DNA of 64,000 nucleotides from Escherichia coli (GCF_002854065.1 NZ_CP024147.1); one strand, 5' to 3'. Numbered from the stretch's first letter, positions 2,520 to 61,302 are shown. Notes: generated by a model not told the origin, from the sequence alone. Numbers and translations are program-made.

Positions 2520-2533
2520 GCCGGAGTGATATT

Positions 2534-3268
2534 GTGAAAGTCATCATTGTTGAAGACGAATTCCTGGCACAACAGGAACTGAGCTGGCTAATTAAAGAGC
2601 ACAGCCAGATGGAGATTGTCGGCACCTTTGACGACGGTCTGGACGTGTTGAAGTTTTTGCAGCATAACCGCGTCGACGCCATTTTTCTGGATATCAATAT
2701 TCCGTCGCTGGATGGTGTGTTGCTGGCACAAAACATCAGCCAGTTCGCCCATAAACCGTTTATTGTGTTCATCACCGCGTGGAAAGAACATGCGGTAGAA
2801 GCGTTTGAACTGGAGGCGTTTGACTACATTCTCAAACCGTATCAGGAGTCTCGCATTACCGGGATGCTGCAAAAACTGGAAGCGGCCTGGCAGCAACAGC
2901 AGACCAGCAGTACGCCTGCCGCGACGGTAACGCGTGAGAATGACACCATTAATCTGGTGAAAGATGAGCGAATAATCGTCACCCCCATTAACGATATCTA
3001 TTACGCCGAAGCGCACGAGAAAATGACCTTTGTCTATACGCGGCGTGAATCCTACGTAATGCCGATGAACATTACCGAATTTTGCAGCAAACTGCCGCCG
3101 TCGCATTTTTTCCGCTGCCATCGCTCATTTTGTGTCAATCTGAACAAAATCCGCGAAATCGAACCGTGGTTTAATAACACCTATATTCTGCGGCTGAAAG
3201 ATCTGGATTTTGAAGTGCCAGTCAGCCGCAGCAAAGTAAAAGAATTTCGCCAGTTAATGCATCTTTAA
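2534..3268 (+). CDS. ypdB: LytTR-family response regulator YpdB
   Basis: GTG start at 2534 (VKVIIVEDE receiver start) gives 244 aa; ORF track opens at an upstream TTG; overlaps ypdA stop; LytTR C-terminal domain. Confidence 0.85.
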   Translation: MKVIIVEDEFLAQQELSWLIKEHSQMEIVGTFDDGLDVLKFLQHNRVDAIFLDINIPSLDGVLLAQNISQFAHKPFIVFITAWKEHAVEAFELEAFDYILKPYQESRITGMLQKLEAAWQQQQTSSTPAATVTRENDTINLVKDERIIVTPINDIYYAEAHEKMTFVYTRRESYVMPMNITEFCSKLPPSHFFRCHRSFCVNLNKIREIEPWFNNTYILRLKDLDFEVPVSRSKVKEFRQLMHL

Positions 3269-3280
3269 TCGGGAACTTTC

Positions 3281-4138
3281 ATGAAAGCACCAGGCTTGCC
3301 CGCCGATCAACAATTTTTCGCCGATCTGTTCAGCGGCCTGGTGCTTAACCCGCAACTACTGGGGCGCGTCTGGTTTGCCAGCCAGCCTGCCTCGTTGCCG
3401 GTGGGCAGTTTATGTATTGATTTTCCCCGTCTGGATATCGTGCTGCGCGGCGAATACGGCAATCTGCTGGAAGCAAAGCAGCAACGTTTGGTGGAAGGAG
3501 AAATGCTGTTTATTCCGGCGCGCGCGGCTAATTTACCGGTCAACAACAAACCGGTGATGCTGTTAAGCCTGGTGTTCGCTCCGACCTGGCTTGGGTTATC
3601 GTTTTACGATAGCCGCACCACGTCGTTGTTGCATCCTGCTCGCCAGATCCAGCTTCCCAGCCTGCAACGCGGTGAAGGTGAAGCGATGCTTACCGCCCTC
3701 ACCCATCTTAGCCGTTCGCCGCTGGAGCAAAATATCATTCAGCCGCTGGTGTTAAGTTTGCTGCATCTTTGCCGTAACGTGGTGAATATGCCGCCGGGCA
3801 ATTCGCAGCCGCGCGGCGATTTTCTCTATCACAGCATTTGTAACTGGGTTCAGGATAATTATGCCCAGCCGCTCACCCGCGAGAGCGTGGCGCAGTTTTT
3901 TAATATCACGCCCAATCATCTGTCAAAACTGTTTGCTCAGCATGGAACGATGCGTTTTATCGAGTATGTGCGTTGGGTGCGAATGGCGAAGGCGAGGATG
4001 ATTTTGCAGAAATATCATCTGTCAATTCATGAAGTGGCACAGAGTTGCGGTTTTCCGGATAGCGACTATTTTTGTCGCGTTTTCCGGCGTCAGTTTGGTC
4101 TGACGCCGGGAGAGTACAGCGCCCGTTTTCAGGGCTAA
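3281..4138 (+). CDS. ypdC: AraC-family transcriptional regulator YpdC
   Basis: 285 aa with C-terminal AraC HTH signature (HLSKLF...FPDSDYFCRVFRRQFGLTPGEY). Confidence 0.85.
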   Translation: MKAPGLPADQQFFADLFSGLVLNPQLLGRVWFASQPASLPVGSLCIDFPRLDIVLRGEYGNLLEAKQQRLVEGEMLFIPARAANLPVNNKPVMLLSLVFAPTWLGLSFYDSRTTSLLHPARQIQLPSLQRGEGEAMLTALTHLSRSPLEQNIIQPLVLSLLHLCRNVVNMPPGNSQPRGDFLYHSICNWVQDNYAQPLTRESVAQFFNITPNHLSKLFAQHGTMRFIEYVRWVRMAKARMILQKYHLSIHEVAQSCGFPDSDYFCRVFRRQFGLTPGEYSARFQG

Positions 4139-4140
4139 CG

Positions 4141-6636: not shown

Positions 6637-6660
6637 AACCGCTCCGGGTTAATCAGGAGA

Positions 6661-7698
6661 TCATCTGAAATCCGTCAGTTGAACAACCGTCTCACGCGTA
6701 AGACGTTGAATAAGGGCAGATAAAAGTTGCTCCATCTGCAAAATGTCGCGGCAATCGGCAATCGACGCGGCGCAATGTCCGTGGCGGGTGGCAGGCCCCA
6801 TCACCACTGTGGGTACGCCGGTACCGGTTAAGTGCACCGCTCCACCGTCCGTGCCGCCGTTACTGAACATATCCGCCTGTAACGGCACGCCAATTTCTGC
6901 CGCCACGGTTTCAATCCAGGCGGTGAGTTTTGGCGGCGCAATCAGTGACTTGTCGCTTAACACCAGCATCGGGCCGTTACCAATCTGGCGATGGTTAGCC
7001 GCGCCATAATCAAAGTTTTTCGCCCAGCAGGCGGTATCAAGGACAATGGCGACGTCCGGCGACACCGCGCGGGTGGCAGTTTGCCCGCCGCGTAACCCCA
7101 CCTCTTCGCTGGAACTGGCCACCAGCCACACTTCCGCAGGCAGTTCGGCGTCGTGCAGCTCACGTAGTAACGTCACCAGCAGATAGCAACCGAGGCGGTC
7201 ATCAAAGGCTTTCCCCATCACTCGCTGGTGGGGGAGAACCTGAAAAGTGGTATCGAACGTGACGCGATCGCCTGGACGAATTCCCGCCTGCATCACTTCG
7301 TCATACGAGCGCGCGCCAATATCCACGCGCATGGCGCTGACGTCATTCCCCTGCCGGTCGCCGTCAAGCAGGCCGGGAATTTTGCACTCTTCACGGGTGG
7401 TGATGCGCACCGGCTGCAGCTGGCGGGCAGCCATGCGTACGTTGCCAACCGGCAGTACATCAATCGCCCCTTCGCGGGAGATGCTGCGCACCATAAATCC
7501 CACTTCATCCATATGCGCACAGATCATCACCTTCGGACCTGTCGATTCATTGAGGCGGATCAGCACCGATCCCAGACCATCAAATCGCACTTCTTTTTGC
7601 AGGCGATCCGCTTCTTCCAGCAGGATCTGCCGTACTTCCTGTTCCGAGGAGGCGATCGCATCTGCCTCGCTCAACGCTTTTAATAGCGATAAATCCAT
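6661..7698 (-). CDS. ypdE: M42-family aminopeptidase YpdE
   Basis: 345 aa, position and length match K-12 ypdE inside fry operon. Confidence 0.85.
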
Positions 7699-8783
7699 TA
7701 TGCCTCTCCCGTGAGCAACACTGTTTTCGGCATGGCGTAGAGCACTTCTGCGCCTTGCGGGGTGACCAGCACAACATCTTCGATGCGCACGCCCCCTTGC
7801 CCTGGCAAATAAATCCCCGGCTCCACGGTCAGTAACATGCCTGGCTGTAGCGTCGTGGTGTCCCGCGGTGAAAAACGCGGATCTTCATGAACTTCAATGC
7901 CGATAGCATGACCGGTGTTATGACCGAAATAGTGGCTAAAACCTGCCTCGGTAATCACCCGACGCGCGGCTTCGTCAACCTGCTGGCAGCGCACGCCGGG
8001 GCGAATTGCAGAGATTGCTGCGAGCTGTGCCTGCAAAACAATCTGATAGACGTTAAACAGCGGGTGAGATTCGGCGCTCACCCCTTCGCCATTCACCAGC
8101 AAGGTGCGCGTCATATCAGAGCAGTAGCCCTGATAGAGCGCACCGAAATCGAGAGTGACAAACTCGCCCGCTGCAACAATCTTGTCGCTGGCTTTGCCGT
8201 GCGGCAGCGCCCCACGCCAGCCACTGGCGACAATGGTGTCAAAAGAGGTTTTTTCTGCGCCCTGCTGGCGCATAAACCACTCCAGTTCAGCGGCTATCTC
8301 GCGCTCGCTCATCCCCGCCTGAATAAAGCGGCGAATATGCTCTGCACCGCGATCGGCAATCCCACAGGCAAGGCGGATTTTCTCCACCTCCTCTGGCGTT
8401 TTGATTTGCCGCAGCACATCCGGCGTGGCGCTAACCAGTTTCGCATTGAGTTCAGACTGCCAGCGGTGCGCGGTTTCCCAACTCACCTGCTGGCCTTCAA
8501 AACCGAGCGTTTGCAACTGCTCATCGGCAATGATTTGCCTGGCGATGGTTGTAAGCGTGTGCGTCGCGTCAAGCAAATGCAGCTGGTAACCTTGCGTGCG
8601 GGCTTCTACATCCGCGTAATAGCGCGAGTCCACCAGAATGTGCGCACTTTCACGGCTAATCAGCACATAGCCTGATCCGGTGGAGATCCCCAGATGCGGC
8701 TGTTTGTTCTGCCGTGAGGAGAGAAGCACCGCATCCAGTTGTTGCGCCTTAAGCCAGTCACGCAGCGAAGCGAGTAATGTCAT
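7698..8783 (-). CDS. ypdF: Xaa-Pro aminopeptidase (M24) YpdF
   Basis: 361 aa with M24 pita-bread metal-binding motifs ([17 protein letters not shown]); start overlaps ypdE stop. Confidence 0.85.
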
Positions 8784-16444: not shown

Positions 16445-18634
16445 TTAATCAGCTAATGGCTGCGGGCGACCAATCAAATACCCTTGCAGATATTGCACCC
16501 CGAGCTTATGCAATAGCGCCTGCTGCTGTTGCGTCTCAACAAACTCCGCAACCACACTCAATGACTTCGCTTTCGCCAGATCGGTAATTGATCTCACAAT
16601 CATCGCATCCAGCGTATTCGTGACGATATCTTTCACAAAGACGCCATCAATTTTGATGATATCAGCCTGCAAACGCTTTAACCGTTCGTAGTTGGCATAT
16701 CCGGTGCCAAAGTCATCAATCGCAATCCGGAAACCAAACTTATGCAGCTGCTCGATGTTGTACATGCTGCTTTCTGCGTTCGAAAACGCCTGCTCCTCGG
16801 TGATCTCAAGAATGACCGCCTGCGGGGAGATGTGATAACGCTTAAATAGACGAATAATCCGCCCGGCAATATTCTTTTGCAGCAGCGTGAGCGGCATTAA
16901 ATTAACTGAAAAGCGCGGGCCTTTTTTGTCGCAAGGGTGTGTTGCCAGCCACTTCAACAAGGATTCCAGCACTTGCAAATCAAAACGCGCGCTAAGGTTA
17001 AACTGAGCAATAAGGGGCAGAAACTTATCCGGGGTCATAATGCCGCCGTCATATTTCAGTCGCGCGAGGATCTCATCATAACCTTCACCCTCTTTGTTGC
17101 GAATTGGCTGGGCGTAGAGCAGCAAATCCCCCTGATCTAACGCCGTGCGAATGGTATTCAGCAATAGCACTTGTTTAGTGGTCTGCCCGGAAACCATCTC
17201 CTCTCGGCTATCCAGCGCCAGCACATGATGATGTGCGCAGGATTGCTCCGCCAGCCAGCTTAACTGCCCCAACAAGGGTTGCAGGGTTTCCTGATTTCCA
17301 TCAAAACGCCCCCAGGCAGCACCATAGCCCATATCCAGCCCGGTATTGTTCCAGTGAATTTGCCGACTATTCAGGATGTTAACCATATGCTGGAGTCGCC
17401 CTTCCGTTTCCGGCCCGCTCAGCACTAACAGCAGTTCACTACCCGGCAATTGATATAACTTTTCGTTTTCCTGCATCAACGGCAGCAGCGTACGGTAGAT
17501 TGAGCGGATACAGTGAACGCGCATCATTAAGCCGTAATGACGACTCATAAACTCAAGATTATCAATGCGCAGGCAGCAAAAACTCTTGCCCGCCTCTTGC
17601 TCCGGCGCTTGTTCCAACGCACGAAAATTGGGTAGGAGCGTTAACGGATCGGTCAGCGCCTGCAAATGCCAGCGGCGATTAAGCCATTCACTGCGATGAT
17701 AAATGCGCACCATATAGAGCAGGCAAACGCTAAAGGAAATCAGCACCGCGAGAATAAATGCCAGCGAATATTCGGTTTCCACCCCTTGCAAAAAGTTCTG
17801 GTTGTAATTCAGCAGGCAAAGCGTTGAAACAGCCCAAGTGAGATTTAAAAACGGATAGCGAAGCTTACCGACCCCGAGGGTAAAGATGATGAAGAAAACG
17901 GGTACCAGGTAACCGGCAATAAAGTCGTTTTCATAAGGTGTGCACAACAGAAGTAGCAGCACGCTTAACGCTGCCAGCCAGCTTAAGGTAAATGCGCGTT
18001 TCTCTTTGCCCAACGACGGAGCGATATCCCTGCGCCACAATATCTGCGCAAAGTGGGGACTTACAATCATGCGAGTGAGATAGTAGAAAAGCATGTTGTA
18101 AATCAGAACAGCGGTGAAAAGGCTTAGCAAATCAACGACCGTGAAAATGGCATCCGCATCGCCGAAAAAGGTGGATATCTTTAGCGGGAAATCAAAGAAG
18201 CTCCCCACAAGATACATGCTGCATTTGATGCCGATCGGCGTCACCAAACCAAGCCAGAACAGACGTTGCCAGACATATCGGCTGGTCAATCCATAACGCC
18301 AACGCGTCCCCAGCTGCCAGCGTAATATTGCGCAGGCACACAACACGACAAACGTCTGGCTGCCGAGCATGACCGCAGTCTGTAAAAAAGAGAGATGAAA
18401 GTTCCACAGATTGGTGCAAAACATCCCGCATAAAACGGGAACGACACCGCGCCAGCCAAAGATAAACAAGATTGACAGCATTACGCACAGTGGCATCCAC
18501 GCCAGAAAGATATAACTGGAATGGATAATGGCAAGTGGCGAAATAAAACGGGATAGCTGAATAAGTACCACGGTGAGCGTAAACGCTAGTGTGAATATCT
18601 TGATATTTTTTATCAGGTTATGCTCCACAAACAT
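16445..18634 (-). CDS. pdeA: c-di-GMP phosphodiesterase PdeA (YfeA); membrane MASE-like N-terminus plus degenerate GGDEF and EAL domains
   Basis: 729 aa from ATG 18634 (MFVEHNLIKNIKIF); EAL motifs near C-terminus. Confidence 0.85.
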   Translation of the reverse strand: MFVEHNLIKNIKIFTLAFTLTVVLIQLSRFISPLAIIHSSYIFLAWMPLCVMLSILFIFGWRGVVPVLCGMFCTNLWNFHLSFLQTAVMLGSQTFVVLCACAILRWQLGTRWRYGLTSRYVWQRLFWLGLVTPIGIKCSMYLVGSFFDFPLKISTFFGDADAIFTVVDLLSLFTAVLIYNMLFYYLTRMIVSPHFAQILWRRDIAPSLGKEKRAFTLSWLAALSVLLLLLCTPYENDFIAGYLVPVFFIIFTLGVGKLRYPFLNLTWAVSTLCLLNYNQNFLQGVETEYSLAFILAVLISFSVCLLYMVRIYHRSEWLNRRWHLQALTDPLTLLPNFRALEQAPEQEAGKSFCCLRIDNLEFMSRHYGLMMRVHCIRSIYRTLLPLMQENEKLYQLPGSELLLVLSGPETEGRLQHMVNILNSRQIHWNNTGLDMGYGAAWGRFDGNQETLQPLLGQLSWLAEQSCAHHHVLALDSREEMVSGQTTKQVLLLNTIRTALDQGDLLLYAQPIRNKEGEGYDEILARLKYDGGIMTPDKFLPLIAQFNLSARFDLQVLESLLKWLATHPCDKKGPRFSVNLMPLTLLQKNIAGRIIRLFKRYHISPQAVILEITEEQAFSNAESSMYNIEQLHKFGFRIAIDDFGTGYANYERLKRLQADIIKIDGVFVKDIVTNTLDAMIVRSITDLAKAKSLSVVAEFVETQQQQALLHKLGVQYLQGYLIGRPQPLAD

Positions 18635-18841
18635 GAGTACACTACTCTCACTGATCGGGGTTTTCAGGCACACAAATAATAAGTTTATTCGCATCGCGAA
18701 GCAAACAGGGGCCAGCCTGTTGCCGATTTTTCATCCAATGATGCTTTCACCAGGCGGCGCTAACCCGGACGTAGACTGTATTACAAAAGCGGCAAAAAGC
18801 AGAGACAAAAAACCCCCGCTTTGCAGCGAGGGTTGGAAATT

Positions 18842-18917
<76 letters not shown>

Positions 18918-18956
18918 ACGATGCGTTTACGTACCAAATTTGCTGGGTGCAAAATT

Positions 18957-19032
<76 letters not shown>

Positions 19033-19267
19033 GTCACGTAAAGCTTGTCGAGTTGACGGGCGGCATCATATGAATTCCGCCCGAATGTGTCAACGGCAAA
19101 TTGCAGCGTGTAGTTTCAATCGCTGAAAAATCAGGCAAATGAACAATTTTGGAAAACCGCTCGCATTCAGTAGTTATTCATGTCACGGTTTCCTGTAAAG
19201 TGGTGTTATAAAATGAACTACTAATAGACCCACATACATTCAGGGAATTGTTATGTTCAAGGAGAGG

Positions 19268-19612
19268 ATGACGCCAGATGAACTTGCCAGACTGACCGGC
19301 TATAGCCGCCAGACCATTAATAAATGGGTACGCAAGGAAGGCTGGACGACGTCACCAAAACCAGGCGTCCAGGGTGGCAAAGCCCGACTGGTTCACGTCA
19401 ATGAACAGGTTCGTGAATATATTCGTAATGCTGAACGTCCAGAAGGTCAGGGAGAAGCGCCTGCCCTTTCTGGTGATGCGCCGCTTGAAGTATTGCTGGT
19501 GACACTGGTGAAAGAGATGACGCCAGTTGAACAAAAACAGTTTACATCCTTGCTTCTGCGGGAAGGGATTATCGGATTGTTACAACGCTTAGGGATTCGC
19601 GATAGCAAATAA
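19268..19612 (+). CDS. yfeC: YfeC, small HTH DNA-binding protein
   Basis: 114 aa from ATG 19268 (MTPDELARLTGYSRQTINKWVRKEGW); paralogous to adjacent yfeD. Confidence 0.85.
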   Translation: MTPDELARLTGYSRQTINKWVRKEGWTTSPKPGVQGGKARLVHVNEQVREYIRNAERPEGQGEAPALSGDAPLEVLLVTLVKEMTPVEQKQFTSLLLREGIIGLLQRLGIRDSK

Positions 19613-19613
19613 T

Positions 19614-20006
19614 ATGAAAAGATTACGCAATAAAATGACCACCGAAGAACTGGCTGAATGCCTCGGTGTGGCTAAACAAACTGTTAACCGTTGGATCAGA
19701 GAAAAAGGCTGGAAAACGGAAAAATTTCCCGGCGTGAAAGGCGGTCGTGCCAGACTTATTCTGGTCGATACGCAAGTTTGCGAGTTTATTCAGAACACGC
19801 CAGCCTTCCATAACACACCGATGCTTCTGGAAGCCGAAGAACCCCTTGCCGAATACGCACCGGGGATTCGCACTCCTGCTTATCGGCAAATCATAAGCGC
19901 AATAGACAACATGACTCACAGTGAGCAGGAAAAAGTTGCGCAATTTTTGTCACGCGAAGGAATTCGTAATTTCCTTGCTCGTCTCGACATAGATGAATCA
20001 GCTTGA
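19614..20006 (+). CDS. yfeD: YfeD, small HTH DNA-binding protein
   Basis: 130 aa (ELAECLGVAKQTVNRWIREKGW), tandem paralog of yfeC. Confidence 0.85.
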   Translation: MKRLRNKMTTEELAECLGVAKQTVNRWIREKGWKTEKFPGVKGGRARLILVDTQVCEFIQNTPAFHNTPMLLEAEEPLAEYAPGIRTPAYRQIISAIDNMTHSEQEKVAQFLSREGIRNFLARLDIDESA

Positions 20007-21754
20007 CATCCTCCACGCCCTGAATGACGAGGATCCCTGCTACGTTCAGGCTGTCGCCTGAATCATTTCGGTGGGTTCCTGCTTCAACGAGTGGCCTGAC
20101 TGCACCATCTCTCCACAGGCAAGAACGGCGTGCCCCGCCGCTAAAATGTTACGAGCGCCGTTTACATCGGCGTTCGCTGTATATCCACATACCTGGCATC
20201 TGAATTTACTTTGTGACAGGCGATTTTCTTTCGCTGTATGACCACAGCACGCGCAACGCTGGCTTGTGTACGCTGGCGGAACAGCAAGCACCTGACCGCC
20301 TCGCCAGAGCTGCTTGTACTCAAGCTGGCGGCGCATTTCATACCAGCCCTGATCCAGTATCGAACGGTTTAAACCTGATTTTGCCCGGACATTGCGCCCC
20401 GGCTGGCTGACCGTACCCGCTGCTGACTTTGACATGTTGCTGACCTTCAAATCCTCAATGACTATCATTGCGTGGTTTTTGCTGACGGTCGTTGTGACTT
20501 TGTGAAGGTAGTCTCTGCGGATATTTGCGGTACAGGAATGCAGTCGCTGTATTTTGCGTTTCTGCTTCTGCCAGTTATTGCTGAATTTGACCTTGCGGCT
20601 TAACTGTCGCTGAAGTCTCGCCAGCTTCTTCTGGTTTTTCTGAAAACTGTTTACAGGCTCAAAGACTGTGCCATCTGACAGCGTGGCGAGTTTAGCCACG
20701 CCAGCATCCAGTCCGACCATTGATGCTGAAGGGTGAACCGGAGTTGATACTTCACTTTCTGTCTGAATACTGATGTACCACTTACCGCAGGACTGGCTGA
20801 CAGTGACATTTTTCACAACACCCGTGACCTGACGGCTGTTCCGGTAGCGCATCCAGCCAAGTTTCGGCAGAAAAATACGGCTGTTTTCCTGATCGAGCTT
20901 AACGCCCTGCGGGTAGCGGAATGCATCATTCTGTCCCCGCTTTTTGAATCGGGGAAAAGCAGCCCGCTTCCGGAAGAAGTTTTTGTAAGCCCGCTCAAGG
21001 TCTTTCAGTGACTGTTGCAATGGCTGTGAGGGCGAATCTTTAAGCCATTGCGTTTCAGTGGCATTTTTCCACTCAACCAGCCAGGAAGCCATTTTCCCGT
21101 AAGGGATGTATTTATTACCGGCCTCATGATTCTCATTCTGACGTGCCAGAGCACGATTGAAAACGAAACGACATGCGCCTGCGAAGCGCCTCATTTCACG
21201 CTCCTGTTGACCAGCGGGTCTTAACTGGAATTTAAATGCCTGTAGTCGTTTCACAGGCCAAATGATACTTTGGTCTATGAATAAAGAAACCGATATCCGA
21301 CGGGGAAGGCATTGTGTTTTCCTGATGCATGTTCATCTGGTCTTTGTCACCAGATACCGACGTCAGATTTTTGACTATGACGCGACAGAAAAACTACGCA
21401 CTTACTTTTCAAATGTATGTGCTGATTTTGAAGCTGAACTGGTTGAAATGGATGGCGAACCAGATCACGTCCATTTGTTAATTAACTATCCTCCCAAACT
21501 GGCGATATCCAGTCTGGTAAACAGCCTCAAAGGCGTATCGGGTAGGTTACTGCGACGAGATCGACCAGATATTGCAGTCAGGTATTACTACAAAGGCGTT
21601 TTGTGGAGTCCTGGCTATTTTGCCAGTAGCTGCGGAGGTGCGCCAATATCCGTCATCCGCCAATACATTGAACAACAGCAAACACCTGGTCAGGTGGAAA
21701 ACCGCGCCTTATATCCCCGCCCTGAAGGACGGGGTTTTACGGCGCACCGGATAA
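20007..21754 (-). mobile_element. IS200/IS605-family insertion sequence (IS605-type divergent tnpA/tnpB; possibly IS609-like); boundaries approximate
   Basis: Divergent Y1/HUH tnpA and tnpB fill the yfeD-gltX gap; an 18-nt related motif (CGCCCTGAA-T/G-GACG-A/G-GG) occurs in the same orientation at both ends, as expected for IS200/IS605 subterminal hairpins; gltX terminator lies immediately outside. Confidence 0.7.
20046..21254 (-). CDS. tnpB: TnpB (OrfB) RuvC-like RNA-guided endonuclease family protein
   Basis: 402 aa, GTG start; RuvC-I GLDAGV, Ruv[11 protein letters not shown], zinc finger CACCGH...CQVCG, Ruv[14 protein letters not shown] all present. Confidence 0.85.
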
Positions 21755-23478: not shown

Positions 23479-23554
23479 GGGTGATTAGCTCAGCTGGGAG
23501 AGCACCTCCCTTACAAGGAGGGGGTCGGCGGTTCGATCCCGTCATCACCCACCA
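23479..23554 (+). tRNA. valU: tRNA-Val (UAC)
   Basis: GGGTGATTAGCTCAGCTGGGAGAGCACCTCCCTTACAAGGAGGGGGTCGGCGGTTCGATCCCGTCATCACCCACCA. Confidence 0.95.
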
Positions 23555-23598
23555 ACTGCTTTATGTAGTCTCCGCCGTGTAGCAAGAAATTGAGAAGT

Positions 23599-23674
23599 GG
23601 GTGATTAGCTCAGCTGGGAGAGCACCTCCCTTACAAGGAGGGGGTCGGCGGTTCGATCCCGTCATCACCCACCA
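23599..23674 (+). tRNA. valX: tRNA-Val (UAC)
   Basis: Identical copy of valU. Confidence 0.95.
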
Positions 23675-23720
23675 CTTTCTCACCAGCTAAATTTCTTGTA
23701 AAAATGTGAAGTACCGAAGT

Positions 23721-23796
23721 GGGTGATTAGCTCAGCTGGGAGAGCACCTCCCTTACAAGGAGGGGGTCGGCGGTTCGATCCCGTCATCACCCACCA
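23721..23796 (+). tRNA. valY: tRNA-Val (UAC)
   Basis: Identical copy of valU. Confidence 0.95.
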
Positions 23797-23800
23797 CTTC

Positions 23801-23876
23801 GGGTCGTTAGCTCAGTTGGTAGAGCAGTTGACTTTTAATCAATTGGTCGCAGGTTCGAATCCTGCACGACCCACCA
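23801..23876 (+). tRNA. lysV: tRNA-Lys (UUU)
   Basis: GGGTCGTTAGCTCAGTTGGTAGAGCAGTTGACTTTTAATCAATTGGTCGCAGGTTCGAATCCTGCACGACCCACCA, 4 nt after valY. Confidence 0.95.
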
Positions 23877-55986: not shown

Positions 55987-57192
55987 TTGAGCAAGACACC
56001 ACTCACAGCAAAGGCCATCGCAGCCGCGCAGCCAAAAGACAAGCCCTATAAACTCACCGATTCACTGACGCCAGGACTGTTTTTGCTGGTGCATCCCAAC
56101 GGCAGCAAATACTGGCGATTCAGGTATTGGTTGAATAAACGAGAGTTTTTGCAGGCCATTGGTGTTTACCCGCTAATCACACTCAAAGAAGCACGCAGAC
56201 GCGCCACAGAGAGCCGATCTCTGATTGCTAATGGAATTAATCCAGTGGAAGAAGCACGCAAGGAAAAAGCCATTGATGCGCTCAACATGGCGGCAGGTTT
56301 TAAGACGGTAGCGGAGGACTGGCTGGCTACCAGGGTCAGCGGGTGGTCAGAGTCCTACACGAAACAGGTTAGATCGGCACTGGAAAAAGATGTTTACCCC
56401 GTGCTGGGGAAGCGGTCAATTGTCGATATAACGGCCCGTGACGTGCTGGAATTGCTTCAGAAGAAAGAGCGTACCGCACCGGAACAAGCCAGGAAGCTAC
56501 GCCAGCGTATCGGGGAGATCTTCAAATTTGCCGTTATCACCGAACTGGTGGCAAGAAATCCGGTTGCAGATCTGAACACAGCACTAAAAGCCCGCCGTCC
56601 GGGCCACAACGCATGGCTGCAAATTAACGAAATTCAGGCGTTCTATGAAGCACTTGAGAGAGCCGGGAGCGTCCAGATTCAGACGGCAATACGTTTGCTC
56701 ATATTGAGCGCTCTAAGGACGGTGGAACTGCGTAAAATGCGCTGGGAATGGGTTAACCTGGAAGACGCGATCATCACCCTACCCGCTGAAGTCATGAAGG
56801 CCCGTCGCCCGCATGTGGTCCCGCTATCACGGCAGGCGGTAGAGCTATTGCAGGACCAGTTTACTCGCACCGGATACAGCGCTTTCGTCTTCCCTGGTCG
56901 ATTCATGGATAAGCCCTTGTCTGCCAGCGCGATACTGAAAGCCCTGGAGCGTATCGGATACAAGTCGATAGCCACAGCACACGGCTGGCGTACAACGTTC
57001 AGCACGACGCTTAACGAGTCCGGCAGGTACTCACCAGACTGGATTGAAATCCAATTGGCCCACGTCCCGAAGGGTGTACGCGGTGTATATAACCAGGCGG
57101 CCTATCTCAAACAGCGCCGTCAAATGCTTCAGGACTACGCCGACGCCATTGATTCAATACTGGCTGGTGAAGGTAATCCGCTGGAACCGTGA
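55987..57192 (+). CDS. intZ: P4-type tyrosine integrase (IntZ-like, CPZ-55-type prophage)
   Basis: 401 aa, apparent TTG start; catalytic R (LRTVELRKMRWEWV), HxxR (HGWRTTFST) and Tyr (GVYNQAAY) regions. Confidence 0.85.
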   Translation: MSKTPLTAKAIAAAQPKDKPYKLTDSLTPGLFLLVHPNGSKYWRFRYWLNKREFLQAIGVYPLITLKEARRRATESRSLIANGINPVEEARKEKAIDALNMAAGFKTVAEDWLATRVSGWSESYTKQVRSALEKDVYPVLGKRSIVDITARDVLELLQKKERTAPEQARKLRQRIGEIFKFAVITELVARNPVADLNTALKARRPGHNAWLQINEIQAFYEALERAGSVQIQTAIRLLILSALRTVELRKMRWEWVNLEDAIITLPAEVMKARRPHVVPLSRQAVELLQDQFTRTGYSAFVFPGRFMDKPLSASAILKALERIGYKSIATAHGWRTTFSTTLNESGRYSPDWIEIQLAHVPKGVRGVYNQAAYLKQRRQMLQDYADAIDSILAGEGNPLEP

Positions 57193-57198
57193 ACTATA

Positions 57199-57224
57199 AG
57201 GCCGGATTCGTCCGGCTTTTCTTT
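57199..57224 (+). terminator. Terminator after integrase
   Basis: GGCCGGA-TTCG-TCCGGC hairpin followed by TTTTCTTT. Confidence 0.7.
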
Positions 57225-57231
57225 CGCTAAT

Positions 57232-57259
57232 TATTCCACTATTCCAATTAAGTGGAATA
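57232..57259. promoter_or_regulatory. Inverted repeat (candidate operator) between int and the 255-aa gene
   Basis: TATTCCACT-ATTCCAATTA-AGTGGAATA, perfect 9-bp arms. Confidence 0.4.
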
Positions 57260-57418
57260 AATTATTCAATATCAAAAACTTACATCAATATTGCAACAAT
57301 AAAAACGGTGGCTTATGATCAGATCATGATTTTCGGTATGTGAACAGCAAAAACAAGAAGCCCGGAAAGGCGGCAACCAATCCGGGCGATATGGGAAAAG
57401 AGATTAGGAGGTTTCCCC

Positions 57419-58186
57419 ATGCGTAATAGTTTAGCAGTTCGCTTTAGCTTGCAGCAAGGCGAAGAATTATCACAGGAATATCAATTCATCAAATACGAAG
57501 AAGCGCCGGAACAGGTGCAAATAGCTTTTGATGATCAGCACTACGGCAACACTATCCGCTACGACGGTAAAAAATGGTTTCTCAATCCGGTAACAAATGC
57601 CATTCACGTATGTCAAATCATTACGCCAGTAAATAACAGCGCGGATAACGATTCGGCTATTGACGCTGAACTGGTGACAGAACCACTACCGCCACCGCCG
57701 CCAGTACAAGAAAGCGATGTAAAACCCGACGCCATCGATCTGACAGCAGAAGCCAGAGAGCGCAAACAACCGAAGCCGGAACAACCGCAAGCCAAGGATA
57801 ACAAACAGTGGCACGGTAACACGGCGTATCTGAATACGTTTGCTTGTCATCTTCATGAAGTGCTACCACAGGCCATCTATAGCACATGGTGCGACAAACA
57901 AACGGCGGCACACTTCCACCTGCTTTACGCGCTTTGCTACCTGGCAAGCTACGAAAACAAAGATGAAGGTATCGAGCTTGGCGAGGTGTTATATGGTGCT
58001 GAAAAGATCACAAAGGGCGGCGTAGTACCTGGTTTCCATATGGCCCGATCAACGTTCGATATCAAGATTAACGAGCTTGAACAGTGGGGATTAATCAAGG
58101 TAACACGAGGTAAGAAACGTAAGGACGGGCAAGGCAACTTGCCGAACAGTATCAAACTGAACTTTAAGCCGTACAGTTTAAAATAA
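57419..58186 (+). CDS. Prophage hypothetical protein with Pro-rich linker and possible C-terminal winged-helix DNA-binding domain
   Basis: 255 aa; AGGAGG SD 8 nt upstream; N-terminal domain, LPPPPPVQ...PKPEQPQ linker, C-terminal STFDIKINELEQWGLIKVTRGKKRK. Confidence 0.6.
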   Translation: MRNSLAVRFSLQQGEELSQEYQFIKYEEAPEQVQIAFDDQHYGNTIRYDGKKWFLNPVTNAIHVCQIITPVNNSADNDSAIDAELVTEPLPPPPPVQESDVKPDAIDLTAEARERKQPKPEQPQAKDNKQWHGNTAYLNTFACHLHEVLPQAIYSTWCDKQTAAHFHLLYALCYLASYENKDEGIELGEVLYGAEKITKGGVVPGFHMARSTFDIKINELEQWGLIKVTRGKKRKDGQGNLPNSIKLNFKPYSLK

Positions 58187-58194
58187 TCACACTA

Positions 58195-58220
58195 GGCGGG
58201 CAATGTTCCCGCCTTTTCTT
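58195..58220 (+). terminator. Terminator after the 255-aa gene
   Basis: GGCGGG-CAATGTT-CCCGCC followed by TTTTCTTT. Confidence 0.7.
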
Positions 58221-58243
58221 TGCCTCAATCCTATAAAATTCAC

Positions 58244-58282
58244 ATCCCGAAAATCGGTATCTGGGTATCCCGAAAATCGGTA
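58244..58282. repeat. Two tandem 16-bp direct repeats, each internally palindromic
   Basis: ATCCCGAAAATCGGTA at 58244-58259 and 58267-58282 (core CCGA-AAA-TCGG), 23-bp spacing. Confidence 0.7.
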
Positions 58283-58289
58283 AGTAATA

Positions 58290-59400
58290 ATAAGTATTAT
58301 CCTTAAAGGTAAAAACCATATAAGTAAGATCTATCTCTTCAAGAATGTATATATTCACTACGTTCATATATACATGAGAAGTTTCCCTTTCATGCAGTCA
58401 AAACTACATTCATCAGCATCGCTTTCTGCGCTCTCCTTCCCAGCAAGCTGGAAAGGCCCATTCACTCACGCACAACCTGCAAACCAGACCAACATACCAT
58501 CATGGCGATTCGTTCATGGGTAGCGCGGGTATATCTCAAAGGGTGATTTCTTCTTGGTGGACCTTCGGAAGACTTCGAGCAATCGCCAGCTCAAAAGACG
58601 GTCTGGCAGTGATGGTTATCATCGACAGCATTGAGCGCTACCGCGCCAACTTACAGCAGCAGGATAACTACCGAAGGAAAACCCACGCCGAAAGGGATTG
58701 ACTCACTGCAAAGCCAATGGGTTTTATCAGCGTATACAGACCAGACAGGAAACAGCAGCAAAGCAGCGTATAGCCAGGTGCAGACAGTACCATCACACAA
58801 CGCACAGCAGGCTGAGGTGAACACTCAAACAGGTTTATCCCCGCAGCCGACCAACGCAAACCATCCTGACCGTGCCAAATTCGAACGGAATGGTGCCTGT
58901 AACGCGATGAACACATATAACCGCTTACTTGCTTACCTGAAAACTTCACGTCGCCACAGAGCGATTTAGACGCATTATAATTGATGCGATTTCATTAAAT
59001 TTTCACCAGACACCGGAACAACGCCGATTAATCCAGGAATGGATTCATCGACATGCGCCGCTTTCCCCGCAGAACAGTCTCGCCTGAATAGTCTCACCAA
59101 CCAGATTTCAGATTGTCCAATCAGGCACGTCTCATTAAACGACAGAATGCGGCCTACAACGCCATCGCTGCCGATCTCGTTTGAGCAAGGTGCTGAGACT
59201 GAATGACGGACGCCCACTCCTCAGAGCTGAGGAATCGCCACACAGAACGCTGAGATCTGATATTACCGCCGCACCATTCCACGCCAGACGAATCAATCTA
59301 ATCACACCTGAGCAAATGCATTGCCAAAAATTAAGGCCGTCAGAATGCGTTATATTGCGTTTAAACGGCATCTAATTTTAATTAGTTTTGATGTGGTGAT
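58290..59400. other. ORF-poor prophage segment with only short overlapping ORFs; possible gene remnants or noncoding RNA
   Basis: No ORF over 112 aa on either strand across about 1.1 kb; the largest is S/T/Q-rich and of low complexity; contains an AT-rich 10-bp inverted repeat ATGTATATAT/ATATATACAT (58345-58375). Confidence 0.4.
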
Positions 59401-59668
59401 TGCAGGCAAAAAAAATCCCGCCGGAGAGAGCGGGGAAGTGAAATCAATCGTTGTAGTTATAGATCACATTTTGAGTAAGGGTTACCAGCCCTTGAGTAAT
59501 ATTATCCCTGTATTACGTGAGATGCGCAATTATTTTTTGCTAATTAAAAGTTTTGTAAACATTACAGAATATCCCCTTTCCCTATATGGTAAAAGATGTG
59601 AAACAGGGACATGAGGAATATAATATTAAGTATCAACAGTAATGTTGGTCTTTAATTTCATTCAGGGC

Positions 59669-59710
59669 GCGGTGAGGGTTTTCCCATATTTTTCCTCACC
59701 GCTACTTTTT
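59669..59710 (+). promoter_or_regulatory. Hairpin plus T-run directly upstream of the alpA-like gene ribosome-binding site
   Basis: GCGGTGAGG-16 nt loop-CCTCACCGC followed by TACTTTTT and then GAGGTGAGAACATG. Confidence 0.45.
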
Positions 59711-59721
59711 GAGGTGAGAAC

Positions 59722-59913
59722 ATGAATGATAGCGAATTAATGACGGTGAGCGAGGTAGCCGCTTTATTCGGCGTTACCCGACGCACTATATTCCGCTGGC
59801 TGAACAAGATTAAAGGTTGGCCCGTTCCGGTTACTCCGGTCGGTGCACGAATTAAGTTTATCCGATCTGAGATTTTGGAATTCTATAAAAACAAAGGCGC
59901 TCGCCACCAATGA
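59722..59913 (+). CDS. AlpA/Xis-family small HTH DNA-binding protein (prophage regulator or excisionase-like)
   Basis: 63 aa, LMTVSEVAALFGVTRRTIFRWL HTH; SD GAGGTGAG. Confidence 0.7.
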   Translation: MNDSELMTVSEVAALFGVTRRTIFRWLNKIKGWPVPVTPVGARIKFIRSEILEFYKNKGARHQ

Positions 59914-59989
59914 AAACAGCTACTGAGATTATCAAATAACCTATTGATTTAATAAGCTAGCTACCGCAATTTCTGAAGGAATAGGCAGC

Positions 59990-60316
59990 ATGAAAATCAA
60001 AGCAAACACAATTAAAGAAATAACATCAATCAAAGTAAAAGGAGCAGATGCCATGCATTCATTAGACAGTTATTTTCAGCGCACGACAGCCCCTAAATCA
60101 GCCGCCCAGGAACGCCGTGAGGAATTCCAGGAAAAAGTGATGCGTTCTGCTGATTATATTGCGGACAAGTTCGTGGAAACGGTTCGGCCACTTGTTGATG
60201 AAGTAGCTGATAAACTTCAGTCTGAAATGCCGGAAGACATGGAAGGCACTGCAAAGGCGCGACTCCTTTTTGAATTAAGTCGTCGTTTCGGCGTGTCAAT
60301 AAGCACTTTTAAATAA
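59990..60316 (+). CDS. Hypothetical prophage protein
   Basis: 108-aa ORF, AAGGA SD, co-directional tight spacing with neighbours. Confidence 0.5.
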   Translation: MKIKANTIKEITSIKVKGADAMHSLDSYFQRTTAPKSAAQERREEFQEKVMRSADYIADKFVETVRPLVDEVADKLQSEMPEDMEGTAKARLLFELSRRFGVSISTFK

Positions 60317-60333
60317 TCGGAGGAGAAAAGACA

Positions 60334-60876
60334 ATGGACGCATTTGATGTACTGACAAACAAAGGCGATGAACTGGTAGCACAGCGTGATAAAACCGCCA
60401 ACGAAGGGGAACGCGCACTGTTAAATAAGCAGATTAAAGCGATCCGTATGGCCCAGTTTAAATTAATCAGCAATGAAGTTATCGAAATAATTAAACCGCA
60501 GATCCCACAAATCGTTGCTGACGCTATTAAAGCCGCCGGACTGGAGAAACGCATTGCCGGGCTGAAAACGAACGCAGAGAAAATGGAGATGCACAAACAG
60601 AGCGGTGCTCCGACTCCGGATGAGTACTTCTCACCGGATGCTGAGTTTATGGCGCAGGTTGAGGAACGTCTGGGTAGCTGTCTCACCGAGGAACAGCGTC
60701 GCTATTTTGATGGAGTGGATAGTTCGGCAGGTATTGACCTGAACTCGTGTTTCGGTCGTGAAATTGAGCATTTTGATGCCGCCCCGTCTATGCCGGAGCC
60801 AGAACCAGAAATGGCCGCCGATCCTGAAGCTGAGCAACGGAAACGCGTATTCAATGCGATAGGGATTCGGTACTGA
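60334..60876 (+). CDS. Hypothetical prophage protein (acidic C-terminus)
   Basis: 180-aa ORF with strong GGAGG SD 8 nt upstream. Confidence 0.6.
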   Translation: MDAFDVLTNKGDELVAQRDKTANEGERALLNKQIKAIRMAQFKLISNEVIEIIKPQIPQIVADAIKAAGLEKRIAGLKTNAEKMEMHKQSGAPTPDEYFSPDAEFMAQVEERLGSCLTEEQRRYFDGVDSSAGIDLNSCFGREIEHFDAAPSMPEPEPEMAADPEAEQRKRVFNAIGIRY

Positions 60877-60927
60877 TCGGATAAAAGAAAGCCGGGAATT
60901 ACCCCGGCTGACTTAACAATGTGACCA

Positions 60928-61302
60928 ATGAACAAATCGGACAAGACAAACAGGATAAGCAGTCTCGAAACAATGTTCGGGAACTATATTAGCACAAGTC
61001 CGGAGAAAATCATCATGTTGGCACTACGCATCATGCAGGGCATCGCTAAGACCCTCGCAGAACATGTCTTAGACCTGAAACATTCGCCACTGAGCAAACA
61101 GGCCATGAAGCGCCAAACGCTTCGTCTGTGGGCTGAATATTCGCTTGGAACTATCAATAAAATCATCGACATGAAATCGGGGCCGAGCAACCAGAGCGCG
61201 GAGGAAATGGAGTTCATCAGGCGTTTAATTCTCATTCGCAGAGATATTCATAGCCAGTTACACAGCGTGGGAATCGATATTAATGATGGGACGGGCGATT
61301 AA
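60928..61302 (+). CDS. Hypothetical prophage protein
   Basis: 124-aa ORF; weak SD, start uncertain. Confidence 0.45.
   Translation: MNKSDKTNRISSLETMFGNYISTSPEKIIMLALRIMQGIAKTLAEHVLDLKHSPLSKQAMKRQTLRLWAEYSLGTINKIIDMKSGPSNQSAEEMEFIRRLILIRRDIHSQLHSVGIDINDGTGD

What the first reader, a model, noticed from the sequence alone, without database searches (positions are those of the whole stretch)
59405..59721. Regulatory region upstream of alpA with a plus-strand terminator-like hairpin and a minus-strand terminator
A 9-bp stem (GCGGTGAGG/CCTCACCGC) followed by a T-run sits about 20 nt before the alpA-like ATG and may attenuate or insulate it. On the opposite strand a GC hairpin followed by T8 at 59405-59435 would terminate a leftward transcript of 260 nt or less that has no ORF beyond about 16 codons. 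The layout resembles a phage immunity or excision switch with a small RNA or leader peptide.
Basis: inference. Interest (0 to 1): 0.4.

Follow-up and report, generated by a model that had tools for sequence, protein, structure and literature searches.

The report
Island small RNA gene beside alpA leader
Both hairpins are real: the leftward one ends a conserved, undescribed ~120-base small RNA gene of E. coli CPZ-55-type islands that, in sister islands, is complementary to the ribosome-binding region of a nuclease gene missing here. The rightward one is a conserved terminator-like hairpin in the leader of the alpA-like operon.

Summary
The window is E. coli chromosome, and the finding lies in a CPZ-55-type (intZ) island inserted next to eutB.

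**Minus strand.** The hairpin plus U8 (59434-59408) is unremarkable on its own. It is, however, the 3' end of a ~115-124-nt element (59408-59531):
- It is found in all 29 related loci, and in diverged form on a 9-kb circular E. coli element.
- It has a promoter-like site just upstream, a covarying internal hairpin and three conserved boxes.
- It matches no Rfam family, has no phage match and no conserved ORF.

**Likely target.** In sister islands, two boxes are complementary to the Shine-Dalgarno region (-23..-7) and codons ~11-18 of an HNH-endonuclease gene just after the alpA-like gene. This points to a trans-acting antisense translational repressor. The window's island, and its near-identical genome, lack that gene, so here the RNA has no identified target.

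**Plus strand.** The hairpin (59669-59702), U-run and SD recur in every leader variant, with different stem sequences. It is most likely an intrinsic terminator acting as an attenuator in the 5' UTR of the alpA-like operon. The small RNA shows no complementarity to it above chance.

No expression data were available. I rate it a new member of a known kind, of moderate interest.

The parts
59408..59531 (-). Candidate small RNA gene (full covariance-model match). The likely transcript runs from about 59522-59526 to about 59408, roughly 115-120 nt.
   Evidence: Model R1 scores 124.6 bits, E = 6e-20. The same element is present in all 29 related loci and on L218. On 19 distinct sequences, 86.8% of cells are paired, against 31-51% when partners are slid.
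59532..59559 (-). Sigma-70-like promoter of the small RNA: -35 TTTACA (59559-59554), 16-nt spacer, -10 AAAAAT (59537-59532).
   Evidence: It is the only promoter-like site found in 58000-61000. In all promoter sequence classes but two, the best -10-like hexamer ends 0-3 nt from the start of the conserved RNA block.
59509..59531 (-). Variable 5' region of the RNA (hairpin HP1 in some variants). It may lie partly upstream of the true 5' end.
   Evidence: Per-sequence folds. The hairpin register differs between variants and is absent in some. The 5' end is not mapped.
59497..59508 (-). Box A (RNA GGGAUAAUAUUA), a conserved unpaired stretch.
   Evidence: GATAATA-T is invariant in the alignments. 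In sister islands it is complementary to gene2 codons ~11-18.
59477..59493 (-). Hairpin HP2 (AAGGG / CUGGUAA / CCCUU).
   Evidence: The stem sequence differs among variants while pairing is kept. Pair 40-56 is GC in 11 and AU in 7; pair 44-52 is GC in 6 and AU in 5.
59462..59476 (-). Box B (RNA ACUCAAAAUGUGAUC here; CCUCAAAAUGUGAUC in most variants), an anti-Shine-Dalgarno-like stretch.
   Evidence: It is conserved. It is complementary to ATCACATTTGAGG at the SD of gene2 in sister islands. No second copy exists in the window.
59447..59460 (-). Box C (RNA AUAACUACAACGAU), conserved, with no partner found.
   Evidence: Nearly invariant in 18 of 19 distinct sequences. There is no complementary site in the window above chance.
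59408..59434 (-). Intrinsic terminator of the small RNA: stem-loop 59434-59417, then A and U8 (59415-59408).
   Evidence: It is conserved in all loci. Pair 107-122 is CG in 16 and AU in 3, a compensatory change.
59619..59624 (+). TATAAT, a candidate -10 of the alpA-operon promoter with a weak -35. It would place the hairpin inside the 5' UTR.
   Evidence: Read from the sequence. TATAAT or TAAAAT occurs at the aligned place in the other variants. It was not reported by the consensus scan. Inference.
59669..59702 (+). Leader hairpin (9-10 bp GC-rich stem, 14-16-nt loop).
   Evidence: -19.6 kcal/mol, z = -3.68. All 15 leader variants, plus L212 and L218, have a hairpin here with different stems. 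On A6, 87.6% of cells are paired and 4 pairs show compensatory changes.
59703..59710 (+). U-rich tract (UACUUUUU) directly after the hairpin.
   Evidence: A run of at least 4 T follows the hairpin in every variant.
59711..59719 (+). Shine-Dalgarno region GAGGUGAGA of the alpA-like gene.
   Evidence: Read from the sequence.
59722..59913 (+). alpA-like gene: a 63-aa excisionase/MerR-type HTH protein, first gene of the rightward operon.
   Evidence: HTH_17 PF12728 at 34.2 bits (cut-off 27). PHROG 66 'excisionase and transcriptional regulator', E = 1.5e-8.

Best explanation
The region is the control region of a CPZ-55-type (intZ) island. It holds two separate RNA-level elements, transcribed in opposite directions.

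(1) Leftward small RNA.
- A sigma-70-like promoter (59559-59532) drives a ~115-120-nt non-coding RNA.
- Its layout is: variable 5' end, Box A, hairpin HP2, Box B (an anti-SD-like CCUC/ACUC...AUGUGAUC stretch), Box C, then an intrinsic terminator with U8 (59434-59408).
- In sister islands, Box B pairs with the Shine-Dalgarno region of the HNH-endonuclease gene ('gene2') that follows the alpA-like gene. Box A pairs with that gene's codons ~11-18.
- The RNA would therefore bracket the start codon and block translation of the nuclease. Inferred consequences are mRNA decay and polarity on downstream genes.
- In this window, gene2 has been replaced by ~113 nt of unrelated sequence. The near-identical genome also lacks gene2. 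Here the RNA gene looks intact but has no identified target. It may act on something not yet found, on incoming related elements, or be a leftover.

(2) Rightward leader hairpin.
- The alpA-like operon appears to start at a promoter near 59619-59624.
- Its 5' UTR runs through a GC-rich hairpin plus U-tract (59669-59710) that abuts the SD.
- This would work as an intrinsic terminator/attenuator that keeps the operon low until something lets RNA polymerase through.

Shown: the sequence features, their conservation, the covariation and the complementarity.

Inferred: transcription, the RNA ends, repression and attenuation.
For: Context:
- The locus is E. coli, with intZ beside eutB.

Small RNA:
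- It is present and collinear in 11 chromosomal variants and 18 metagenome contigs at 72-139 bits. A diverged copy sits on a 9-kb circular element at 93 bits.
- The HP2 and terminator stems change sequence but keep pairing. 86.8% of cells are paired, against 31-51% when slid. The covariation score is 0.181 against 0.103 +/- 0.014, with 0 of 500 shuffles as high.
- The -10-like hexamer ends 0-3 nt before the conserved block in most promoter classes.
- No ORF is conserved on either strand.

Target:
- Every gene2-bearing locus with enough flanking sequence carries a Box B-complementary site at the gene2 SD. All but L008 also carry a Box A-complementary site at about +31..+55.
- These are the top-ranked duplexes in those loci: -15 to -20 kcal/mol for Box B and -21.6 for Box A.
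- Z-scores against shuffled RNA segments are -2.3 to -5.6 for Box B and -2.5 to -5.3 for Box A in most loci.

Leader hairpin:
- Fifteen distinct leaders all fold into a 7-12-bp hairpin followed by a U-run and the SD. Z-scores are -2 to -5.2 in 10 of 11 variants tested.
- Compensatory changes occur at 4 of 10 pairs.
- The same design appears in the rssA-site island L212 and the circular element L218.
Against: - No transcript data exist. The promoter, 5' end and termination are all predictions.
- The window and most small-RNA-bearing genomes lack gene2: the region occurs in 188 genomes, gene2 in 59, and at least one gene2 copy lies in an island without the RNA. Gene2 therefore cannot explain why the RNA is kept here.
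- Complementarity is weak in some gene2 islands: L005 for both boxes, L007 and L008 for Box A.
- No trans-compensatory changes were seen between the RNA and its target.
- The gene2 boxes also occur in L212, which has no small RNA. They are thus partly intrinsic to the gene.
- Sequences are closely related and mosaic, and alignment A5 was fitted to the model, so the covariation statistics are inflated to an unknown degree.
- The leader hairpin loop (14-16 nt here, 25-45 nt in some variants) is long for an efficient intrinsic terminator.
- Plus- and minus-strand folds of the leader hairpin are nearly equal in energy (-209.7 against -202.5 kcal/mol summed over 12 variants).
Confidence: 0.6

Rival explanations
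1. There is no functional small RNA. The minus-strand hairpin is only a terminator or insulator, for example ending stray leftward transcription. The conserved boxes would then be DNA sites (operators for the AlpA-like protein, integrase/excisionase or host factors) that recur at the gene2 start.
For: - Boxes B and A occur as direct repeats on the plus strand at two places about 470 bp apart. The gene2 copy exists even in an island without the element.
- As a single sequence, the terminator is at chance level.
Against: - A promoter-like site, a covarying internal hairpin and a U8 terminator are arranged in register on one strand in all 29 loci.
- The spacing between the two boxes differs: about 20 nt in the RNA gene against about 39 nt at gene2. 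RNA pairing tolerates this better than a fixed protein footprint would.
- The gene2 sites sit exactly on the SD and the early codons.
Confidence: 0.15
2. The plus-strand inverted repeat works as DNA. It would be an operator for a dimeric regulator, possibly the AlpA-like protein itself, overlapping a promoter whose -10 (CATATT) lies in the 'loop'. It would not be an RNA terminator.
For: - The loop sequence TTTTCC(N)CATATTT and an upstream TTCAGG box are conserved in leader types 1-4.
- Arm sequences differ between variants that also differ in their HTH protein.
- Plus- and minus-strand fold energies are similar.
- The loops are long for a terminator.
Against: - The TTCAGG-to-CATATT spacing varies from 15 to 19 nt, counted from the sequences. 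That is poor for a fixed promoter.
- The fifth leader type has a 25-45-nt CT-rich loop with no such motif.
- A T-run always follows on the plus strand only.
- G.U pairs occur in 10 of 12 variants on the plus-strand RNA.
- The stems are GC-rich and 9-12 bp long, as in terminators.
Confidence: 0.15
3. P4/P1-style immunity loop. The small RNA would pair with the nascent alpA leader and force termination at the leader hairpin, or mask the alpA SD. The two hairpins of the finding would then be parts of one switch.
For: - The layout resembles phage immunity regions.
- Duplex searches in the window and in L004 gave hits of the RNA on the leader hairpin.
- Box B (CUCAAAA) can pair with UUUUGAG at the alpA SD, as read from the sequence.
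Against: - Cognate RNA-leader duplex energies match non-cognate and shuffled controls: Box A -16.5 against -14.8 and -14.7 +/- 3.8; Box B -10.1 against -9.7 and -9.5.
- L010 shares the window's leader but carries a different HP1/HP2 variant of the RNA, so the two do not co-vary.
Confidence: 0.07
4. The region encodes a protein: the plus-strand ORF 59345-59614 (89 aa), which PGAP annotates in the near-identical genome.
For: It is annotated as hypothetical protein WP_001268866.1 in NZ_CP182139.1. The frame is open for 100 codons in the window.
Against: - The frame is broken by 1- and 4-nt indels and stops in most other variants. The longest open stretch there is 68 codons or fewer, except in L008.
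- It has no Pfam or PHROG match.
- It is not annotated in most related genomes.
Confidence: 0.03

Closest known systems
c4 antisense RNA of phages P1/P7 and CI RNA of satellite phage P4 (Rfam C4 family)
   Same: Each is a small RNA of a mobile element with two short segments complementary to two sites in a target operon. One site covers a ribosome-binding site, and pairing keeps a lytic or mobilisation function silent. This rests on established knowledge; the review PMC12197685 covers c4.
   Different: - c4 and CI are processed out of the same-strand leader transcript of the operon they control. This RNA has its own promoter and terminator on the opposite strand.
- No Rfam model matches, even at E up to 10.
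- There is no complementarity to the leader of its own operon.
Trans-encoded type I toxin-antitoxin pairs: RalR/RalA of the rac prophage, TisB/IstR-1, ZorO/OrzO
   Same: The small RNA gene lies next to its target operon and is transcribed divergently from it. It has short, imperfect complementarity to the translation-initiation region. In RalR/RalA the target is a prophage nuclease. This comparison rests on my own knowledge.
   Different: - The target here is a 131-aa HNH_3 endonuclease, second gene of an operon about 470 nt away, and its toxicity is unknown.
- There is no sequence or Rfam relationship.
- The RNA persists in many islands that lack the target.
Sar RNA of phage P22 (antisense to the ant RBS)
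   Same: It is a short phage-encoded RNA that blocks translation by covering the SD of a gene in the immunity region.
   Different: Sar is cis-encoded and fully complementary. This RNA acts in trans with two interrupted pairings.
Leader intrinsic terminators (attenuators) of phage and island early operons
   Same: A GC-rich hairpin plus U-tract lies between the promoter and the first SD.
   Different: - The loop is unusually long: 14-16 nt here and up to about 45 nt in relatives.
- No antiterminator or alternative structure has been identified.
- The hairpin directly abuts the SD.

Membership tests
Rfam C4 antisense RNA family (P1/P7 c4, P4 CI) | Match to the family covariance model at or above its gathering score. 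| tested here: not met
   There was no C4 hit at the gathering threshold, nor at E up to 10 in 57200-60400 or 59300-59800.
Rfam C4 antisense RNA family (P1/P7 c4, P4 CI) | Processed from the same-strand leader transcript of the operon it represses. | tested here: not met
   The element lies on the strand opposite the alpA operon, with its own promoter-like site and terminator.
Rfam C4 antisense RNA family (P1/P7 c4, P4 CI) | Two short segments complementary to two target sites, one covering an RBS. | tested here: inconclusive
   Met in sister islands, on the gene2 SD and codons ~11-18. Not met in the window, which lacks gene2.
Intrinsic (Rho-independent) terminator, minus strand 59434-59408 | GC-rich stem, loop of 3-8 nt, and a U-tract immediately 3'. 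| tested here: met
   It has 6 pairs (5 G-C), a 6-nt loop and U8. It is conserved with a compensatory pair. Termination itself was not tested.
Intrinsic (Rho-independent) terminator, plus strand 59669-59710 | GC-rich stem and a U-tract immediately 3'. | tested here: met
   It has a 9-10-bp stem at -19.6 kcal/mol, followed by UACUUUUU. It is conserved in all leader variants.
Intrinsic (Rho-independent) terminator, plus strand 59669-59710 | Short loop (typically 3-8 nt). | tested here: not met
   The loop is 14-16 nt here and 25-45 nt in other leader types. The site was not called by the consensus scan.
Trans-encoded type I toxin-antitoxin system | Antitoxin small RNA with partial complementarity to the toxin's translation-initiation region. 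| tested here: inconclusive
   Complementarity to the gene2 initiation region is seen in sister islands. No such gene exists in the window.
Trans-encoded type I toxin-antitoxin system | The target protein is toxic when the RNA is absent. | not testable with these tools
   Gene2 is an HNH_3 endonuclease (PF13392, 37.4 bits). Its toxicity is unknown.
AlpA family (Pfam Phage_AlpA, PF05930) for the downstream gene | Match to PF05930 above its cut-off. | tested here: not met
   The best Pfam hit is HTH_17 (PF12728, 34.2 bits). PF05930 is not among hits at E up to 0.01. PHROG 66 'excisionase and transcriptional regulator' does match.
Hfq-dependent small RNA | Intrinsic terminator with a long U tail, plus Hfq binding. 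| not testable with these tools
   The U8 tail is present. Binding cannot be assessed.

The most novel reading that the evidence does not exclude
The small RNA is an immunity or exclusion factor of a family of small mobilisable E. coli elements (CPZ-55-type islands and a 9-kb circular relative). By silencing the HNH nuclease of the packaging or mobilisation module, it would hold the resident element quiescent. Kept in islands that have lost the nuclease, it would act in trans against incoming or co-resident related elements. That would be RNA-based cross-immunity between satellite-like elements, combined with a separately controlled leader attenuator.
Probability: 0.15. Interest if true: 0.65.

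Novelty: new member of a known kind. Interest (0 to 1): 0.45.

Why it matters
CPZ-55 is one of the nine cryptic prophages of E. coli K-12, yet its fuller relatives are almost unstudied. This analysis gives that island family:
- a defined control region;
- a candidate regulatory RNA with a concrete, testable target (an HNH endonuclease gene);
- a conserved leader attenuator.

If confirmed, it adds an undescribed small RNA family to E. coli. It would also be an RNA-level control layer for a nuclease or packaging gene in satellite-like islands, testable in the common strain ATCC 8739. It further corrects a likely spurious 'hypothetical protein' annotation that overlaps the RNA gene.

Tried and rejected
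- **Rfam, gathering and E up to 10.** Only sub-threshold, terminator-driven hits appeared: GcvB 19.9 bits, STnc430 25.8 and LhrC 23.6. I rejected them as chance.
- **Homologues outside E. coli.**
  - An exact-box scan found nothing in viral contigs or GTDB species representatives.
  - A degenerate pattern gave 79 hits in unrelated genomes, mostly AT-rich and none enterobacterial; the four I tested with the model were negative.
  - There was no match among phage records.
  - The K-12 CPZ-55 prophage has no copy.
- **Small RNA pairing with the alpA leader or its hairpin.** The energies were no better than non-cognate or shuffled controls, so I rejected this.
- **HP2 co-varying with the leader hairpin arm.** L010 shares the window's leader but has a different HP2, so I rejected this.
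- **Another in-island target in the window.** I tested the initiation regions of ORF87, ORF180, ORF95, ORF76 and the large ORF. There was no consistent signal. duplexfold on long inputs is noisy.
- **A promoter inside the leader hairpin (TTCAGG...CATATT).** The spacing varies from 15 to 19 nt and the motif is absent from leader type 5. I judged it unlikely.
- **A conserved leader peptide or small ORF on either strand.** None was found.
- **Relatives of the HTH protein in viral contigs.** Only five distant hits came back, which were not informative.
- **Literature searches.** Searches on CPZ-55 with small RNA or satellite, alpA/PICI with small RNA, and HNH with antisense RNA found no description of this element.

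Full report
**Context**

The window is E. coli chromosome. Region 58200-59950 is 99.9% identical to strain CUWW06 and occurs, in variants, in 223 of 5426 complete E. coli genomes, always on the chromosome. Annotation of the matching genomes shows an island inserted beside eutB:
- It starts with the tyrosine integrase intZ (window 55987-57192). This is the site and integrase of the K-12 cryptic prophage CPZ-55.
- Next comes a 255-aa ORF, then about 1.5 kb with no credible gene.
- Then follows a rightward operon that begins with a 63-aa HTH gene (59722-59913).

That gene matches HTH_17 and PHROG 66 'excisionase and transcriptional regulator'. It does not match Pfam Phage_AlpA, so 'alpA-like' is only loosely apt.

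**Checking the observation**

- The plus-strand stem is GCGGTGAGG/CCTCACCGC (59669-59677 and 59694-59702). It is followed by UACUUUUU, the SD and the ATG 19 nt after the stem. It folds at -19.6 kcal/mol with z = -3.68.
- The minus-strand hairpin (59434-59417) plus U8 is a textbook terminator in form. It is not exceptional by itself, with z = -1.69. Terminator-like sites in this 3 kb occur at the shuffle rate, 4 against 3.2.

Single-sequence evidence is therefore weak, and the case rests on comparison.

**The minus-strand element is a conserved RNA-like gene**

Hits to 59300-59760 fall into many mosaic island variants. Some share only the left ~180-250 nt, that is the terminator side, and not the alpA gene. 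I aligned 11 chromosomal variants. A fixed architecture appears on the minus strand:
- a promoter-like region;
- a variable 5' part;
- Box A (GAUAAUAUUA);
- a hairpin, HP2, whose stem differs between variants: AAGGG/CCCUU, GAGGAU/AUCCUC, AAGGAUU/AAUCCUU, CGAGGG/CCCUCG, GUAAGG/CCUUAC and UGAGG/CCUCA;
- Box B (CCUCAAAAUGUGAUC; ACUC... in the window);
- Box C (AUAACUACAACGAU);
- the terminator and U-run.

A covariance model built from these behaves as follows:
- It scores the window at 124.6 bits.
- It finds the element in 18 further metagenome contigs.
- It finds a diverged copy on a 9-kb circular E. coli 'plasmid' (93 bits).
- It finds nothing in K-12 CPZ-55 or in a related island at the rssA site.

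BLAST finds no match in phage records, and pattern scans find no copy in GTDB species representatives.

On 19 distinct sequences:
- 86.8% of cells pair, against 31-51% when partners are slid.
- Compensatory changes occur at HP2 pairs 40-56 (GC 11, AU 7) and 44-52 (GC 6, AU 5), and at terminator pair 107-122 (CG 16, AU 3).
- No shuffle reaches the observed covariation score.

The sequences are related, and the alignment was fitted to the model, so these figures overstate independence.

Further points support a non-coding RNA gene:
- The only consensus promoter match in 58000-61000 is on the minus strand at 59559-59532.
- In most promoter sequence classes the best -10 ends 0-3 nt before the conserved block. 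This predicts a 5' end near 59522-59526 and an RNA of about 115-120 nt.
- No reading frame is conserved. The 100-codon plus-strand frame that PGAP calls a hypothetical protein is specific to the window lineage and has no family match.
- No Rfam family matches; there are only weak terminator-driven hits.
- Literature searches found no description of the element.

**What the RNA most likely does**

In every locus that carries an HNH-endonuclease gene ('gene2'; HNH_3) directly after the alpA-like gene, the plus strand holds two sites:
- ATCACATT(T)(T)GAGG lies on the SD of gene2.
- In all but one locus, GCTGATATTATGCGCCGC lies at about +31 to +55.

These are complementary to Box B and to Box A with its 5' flank.

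They are the best duplexes found in those loci: about -15 to -20 and -21.6 kcal/mol. They stand at z = -2.3 to -5.6 and -2.5 to -5.3 against shuffled RNA segments in most loci. They are weaker in L005, L007 and L008.

The sequence between the two sites differs. It is a covarying hairpin in the RNA gene, but the start codon and ten codons in gene2. So this is not a simple duplicated gene fragment.

The natural reading is a trans-acting antisense RNA that brackets the start codon of the nuclease gene and blocks its translation.

**The window is the target-less case**

The window has no second copy of either box.
- Homology to gene2-bearing islands resumes only at the last ~12 nt of gene2 (window 60027), ahead of the next gene.
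- Gene2 occurs in 59 genomes, none of them the window-like genome.
- The RNA region occurs in 188 genomes.

Most carriers therefore lack the only target I could identify. At least one gene2 copy, in L212, sits in an island without the RNA yet keeps box-like sequences.

Searches for another target inside the island gave nothing consistent. In this window the RNA's function is open. It may have another target, act in trans on related elements, or be a leftover. Its Box B differs by one base (C to A) and the flank of Box A differs from the gene2-matching variants.

**The plus-strand hairpin**

Fifteen distinct leader sequences, plus L212 and L218, all place a 7-12-bp GC-rich hairpin, a U-run and then the SD directly before the HTH gene. 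The stems are quite different: GCGGUGAGG, GGCGGCUGG, GCGGCGGUUG, CCGCCUCCAGG, CCGCCUCACGG and others.
- Ten of 11 variants tested fold with z between -2 and -5.2.
- On an alignment of ten, 87.6% of cells pair and four pairs show compensatory changes.
- A -10-like TATAAT/TAAAAT lies upstream (59619-59624 here), which puts the hairpin in the 5' UTR.

I read it as an intrinsic terminator/attenuator. Several caveats apply:
- The loops are long, 14-16 nt here and up to about 45 nt in relatives.
- A DNA-operator reading is not excluded.
- What relieves attenuation is unknown.
- The small RNA is not complementary to this leader above controls, so the two hairpins of the finding are not two halves of a P4-like loop.

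**Comparison and verdict**

In function, the RNA resembles the c4/CI immunity RNAs and the trans-encoded type I antitoxins such as RalA. By model match and gene organisation it is a member of none of them. I file it as an undescribed small RNA family of a known kind, next to a conserved leader terminator. Everything about expression and effect is inferred from sequence.

Noticed in passing
window 59310-59400: A ~90-130-nt plus-strand block (GCAAATGCATTGCCAAAAATTAAGGCCGTCAGAATGCGTTATATTGCGTTTAAACGGCATC.AATTTTAAT) lies just beyond the small RNA's terminator. It is conserved in all island variants even where the upstream genes differ, and in some it starts right after a plus-strand terminator. 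Its middle carries indel polymorphisms. No promoter, ORF or structure could be assigned.
   Followed up: partly
L218 (CP057168.1, whole record; small RNA copy at 3137-3255): A 9,003-bp circular E. coli 'plasmid' carries the same module: a diverged small RNA, the leader hairpin, the HTH gene, an HNH gene and the downstream small genes. It has a 'recombinase family protein' instead of intZ. This suggests the island family also exists as, or derives from, a small circular element.
   Followed up: partly
L212 (NZ_CP024245.1) 2099-8416: A sister island at a different site (beside rssA), with a different integrase, has the same leader hairpin design, the HTH gene, gene2 and the downstream genes. It has no small RNA homologue. 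It also holds a second, interrupted alpA-like reading frame upstream.
   Followed up: partly
window 58215-59300: About 1.1 kb has no credible ORF, lying between a plus-strand terminator (58194-58214, after the 255-aa ORF) and the conserved block. Other variants carry different genes here (YafO-family toxin, HTH proteins), so it is probably a decayed variable region.
   Followed up: no
window 59990-60316: The 108-aa ORF after the HTH gene probably starts at the internal ATG at 60053. That start has the SD AAGGAG 8 nt upstream. Orthologues in sister islands are annotated at 264 bp, and homology to them begins just upstream of that ATG.
   Followed up: partly
L001 (NZ_CP182139.1) 17768-20872, beyond the window's right end: In the window-like genome the island is followed by an IS1B element and then maeB. 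The eutA-side half of the eut operon appears to have been deleted next to the island.
   Followed up: no
window 59632-59649: A small plus-strand hairpin (AUCAACA/GUAA/UGUUGGU) is followed by a U-rich stretch, early in the putative alpA leader. It is present only in the window-type leaders and absent from TOK-001-type ones. It produced the weak STnc430 and LhrC Rfam hits.
   Followed up: partly
window 18842-19032 and 23479-23876: There are two tRNA clusters far from the finding: two tRNA-Ala(GGC) genes on the minus strand, and three tRNA-Val(TAC) genes plus one tRNA-Lys(TTT) on the plus strand.
   Followed up: no
L007, L009, L011, L093, L133, L161 (start of the 180-aa ORF; window equivalent 60334): A second, shorter Box B-complementary site (ACGCATTTGAGG) sits at codons 2-5 of the 180-aa ORF in gene2-bearing islands. 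Duplex energy is about -17.6 kcal/mol in L009. In the window the sequence is GCATTTGATG, which pairs poorly.
   Followed up: partly
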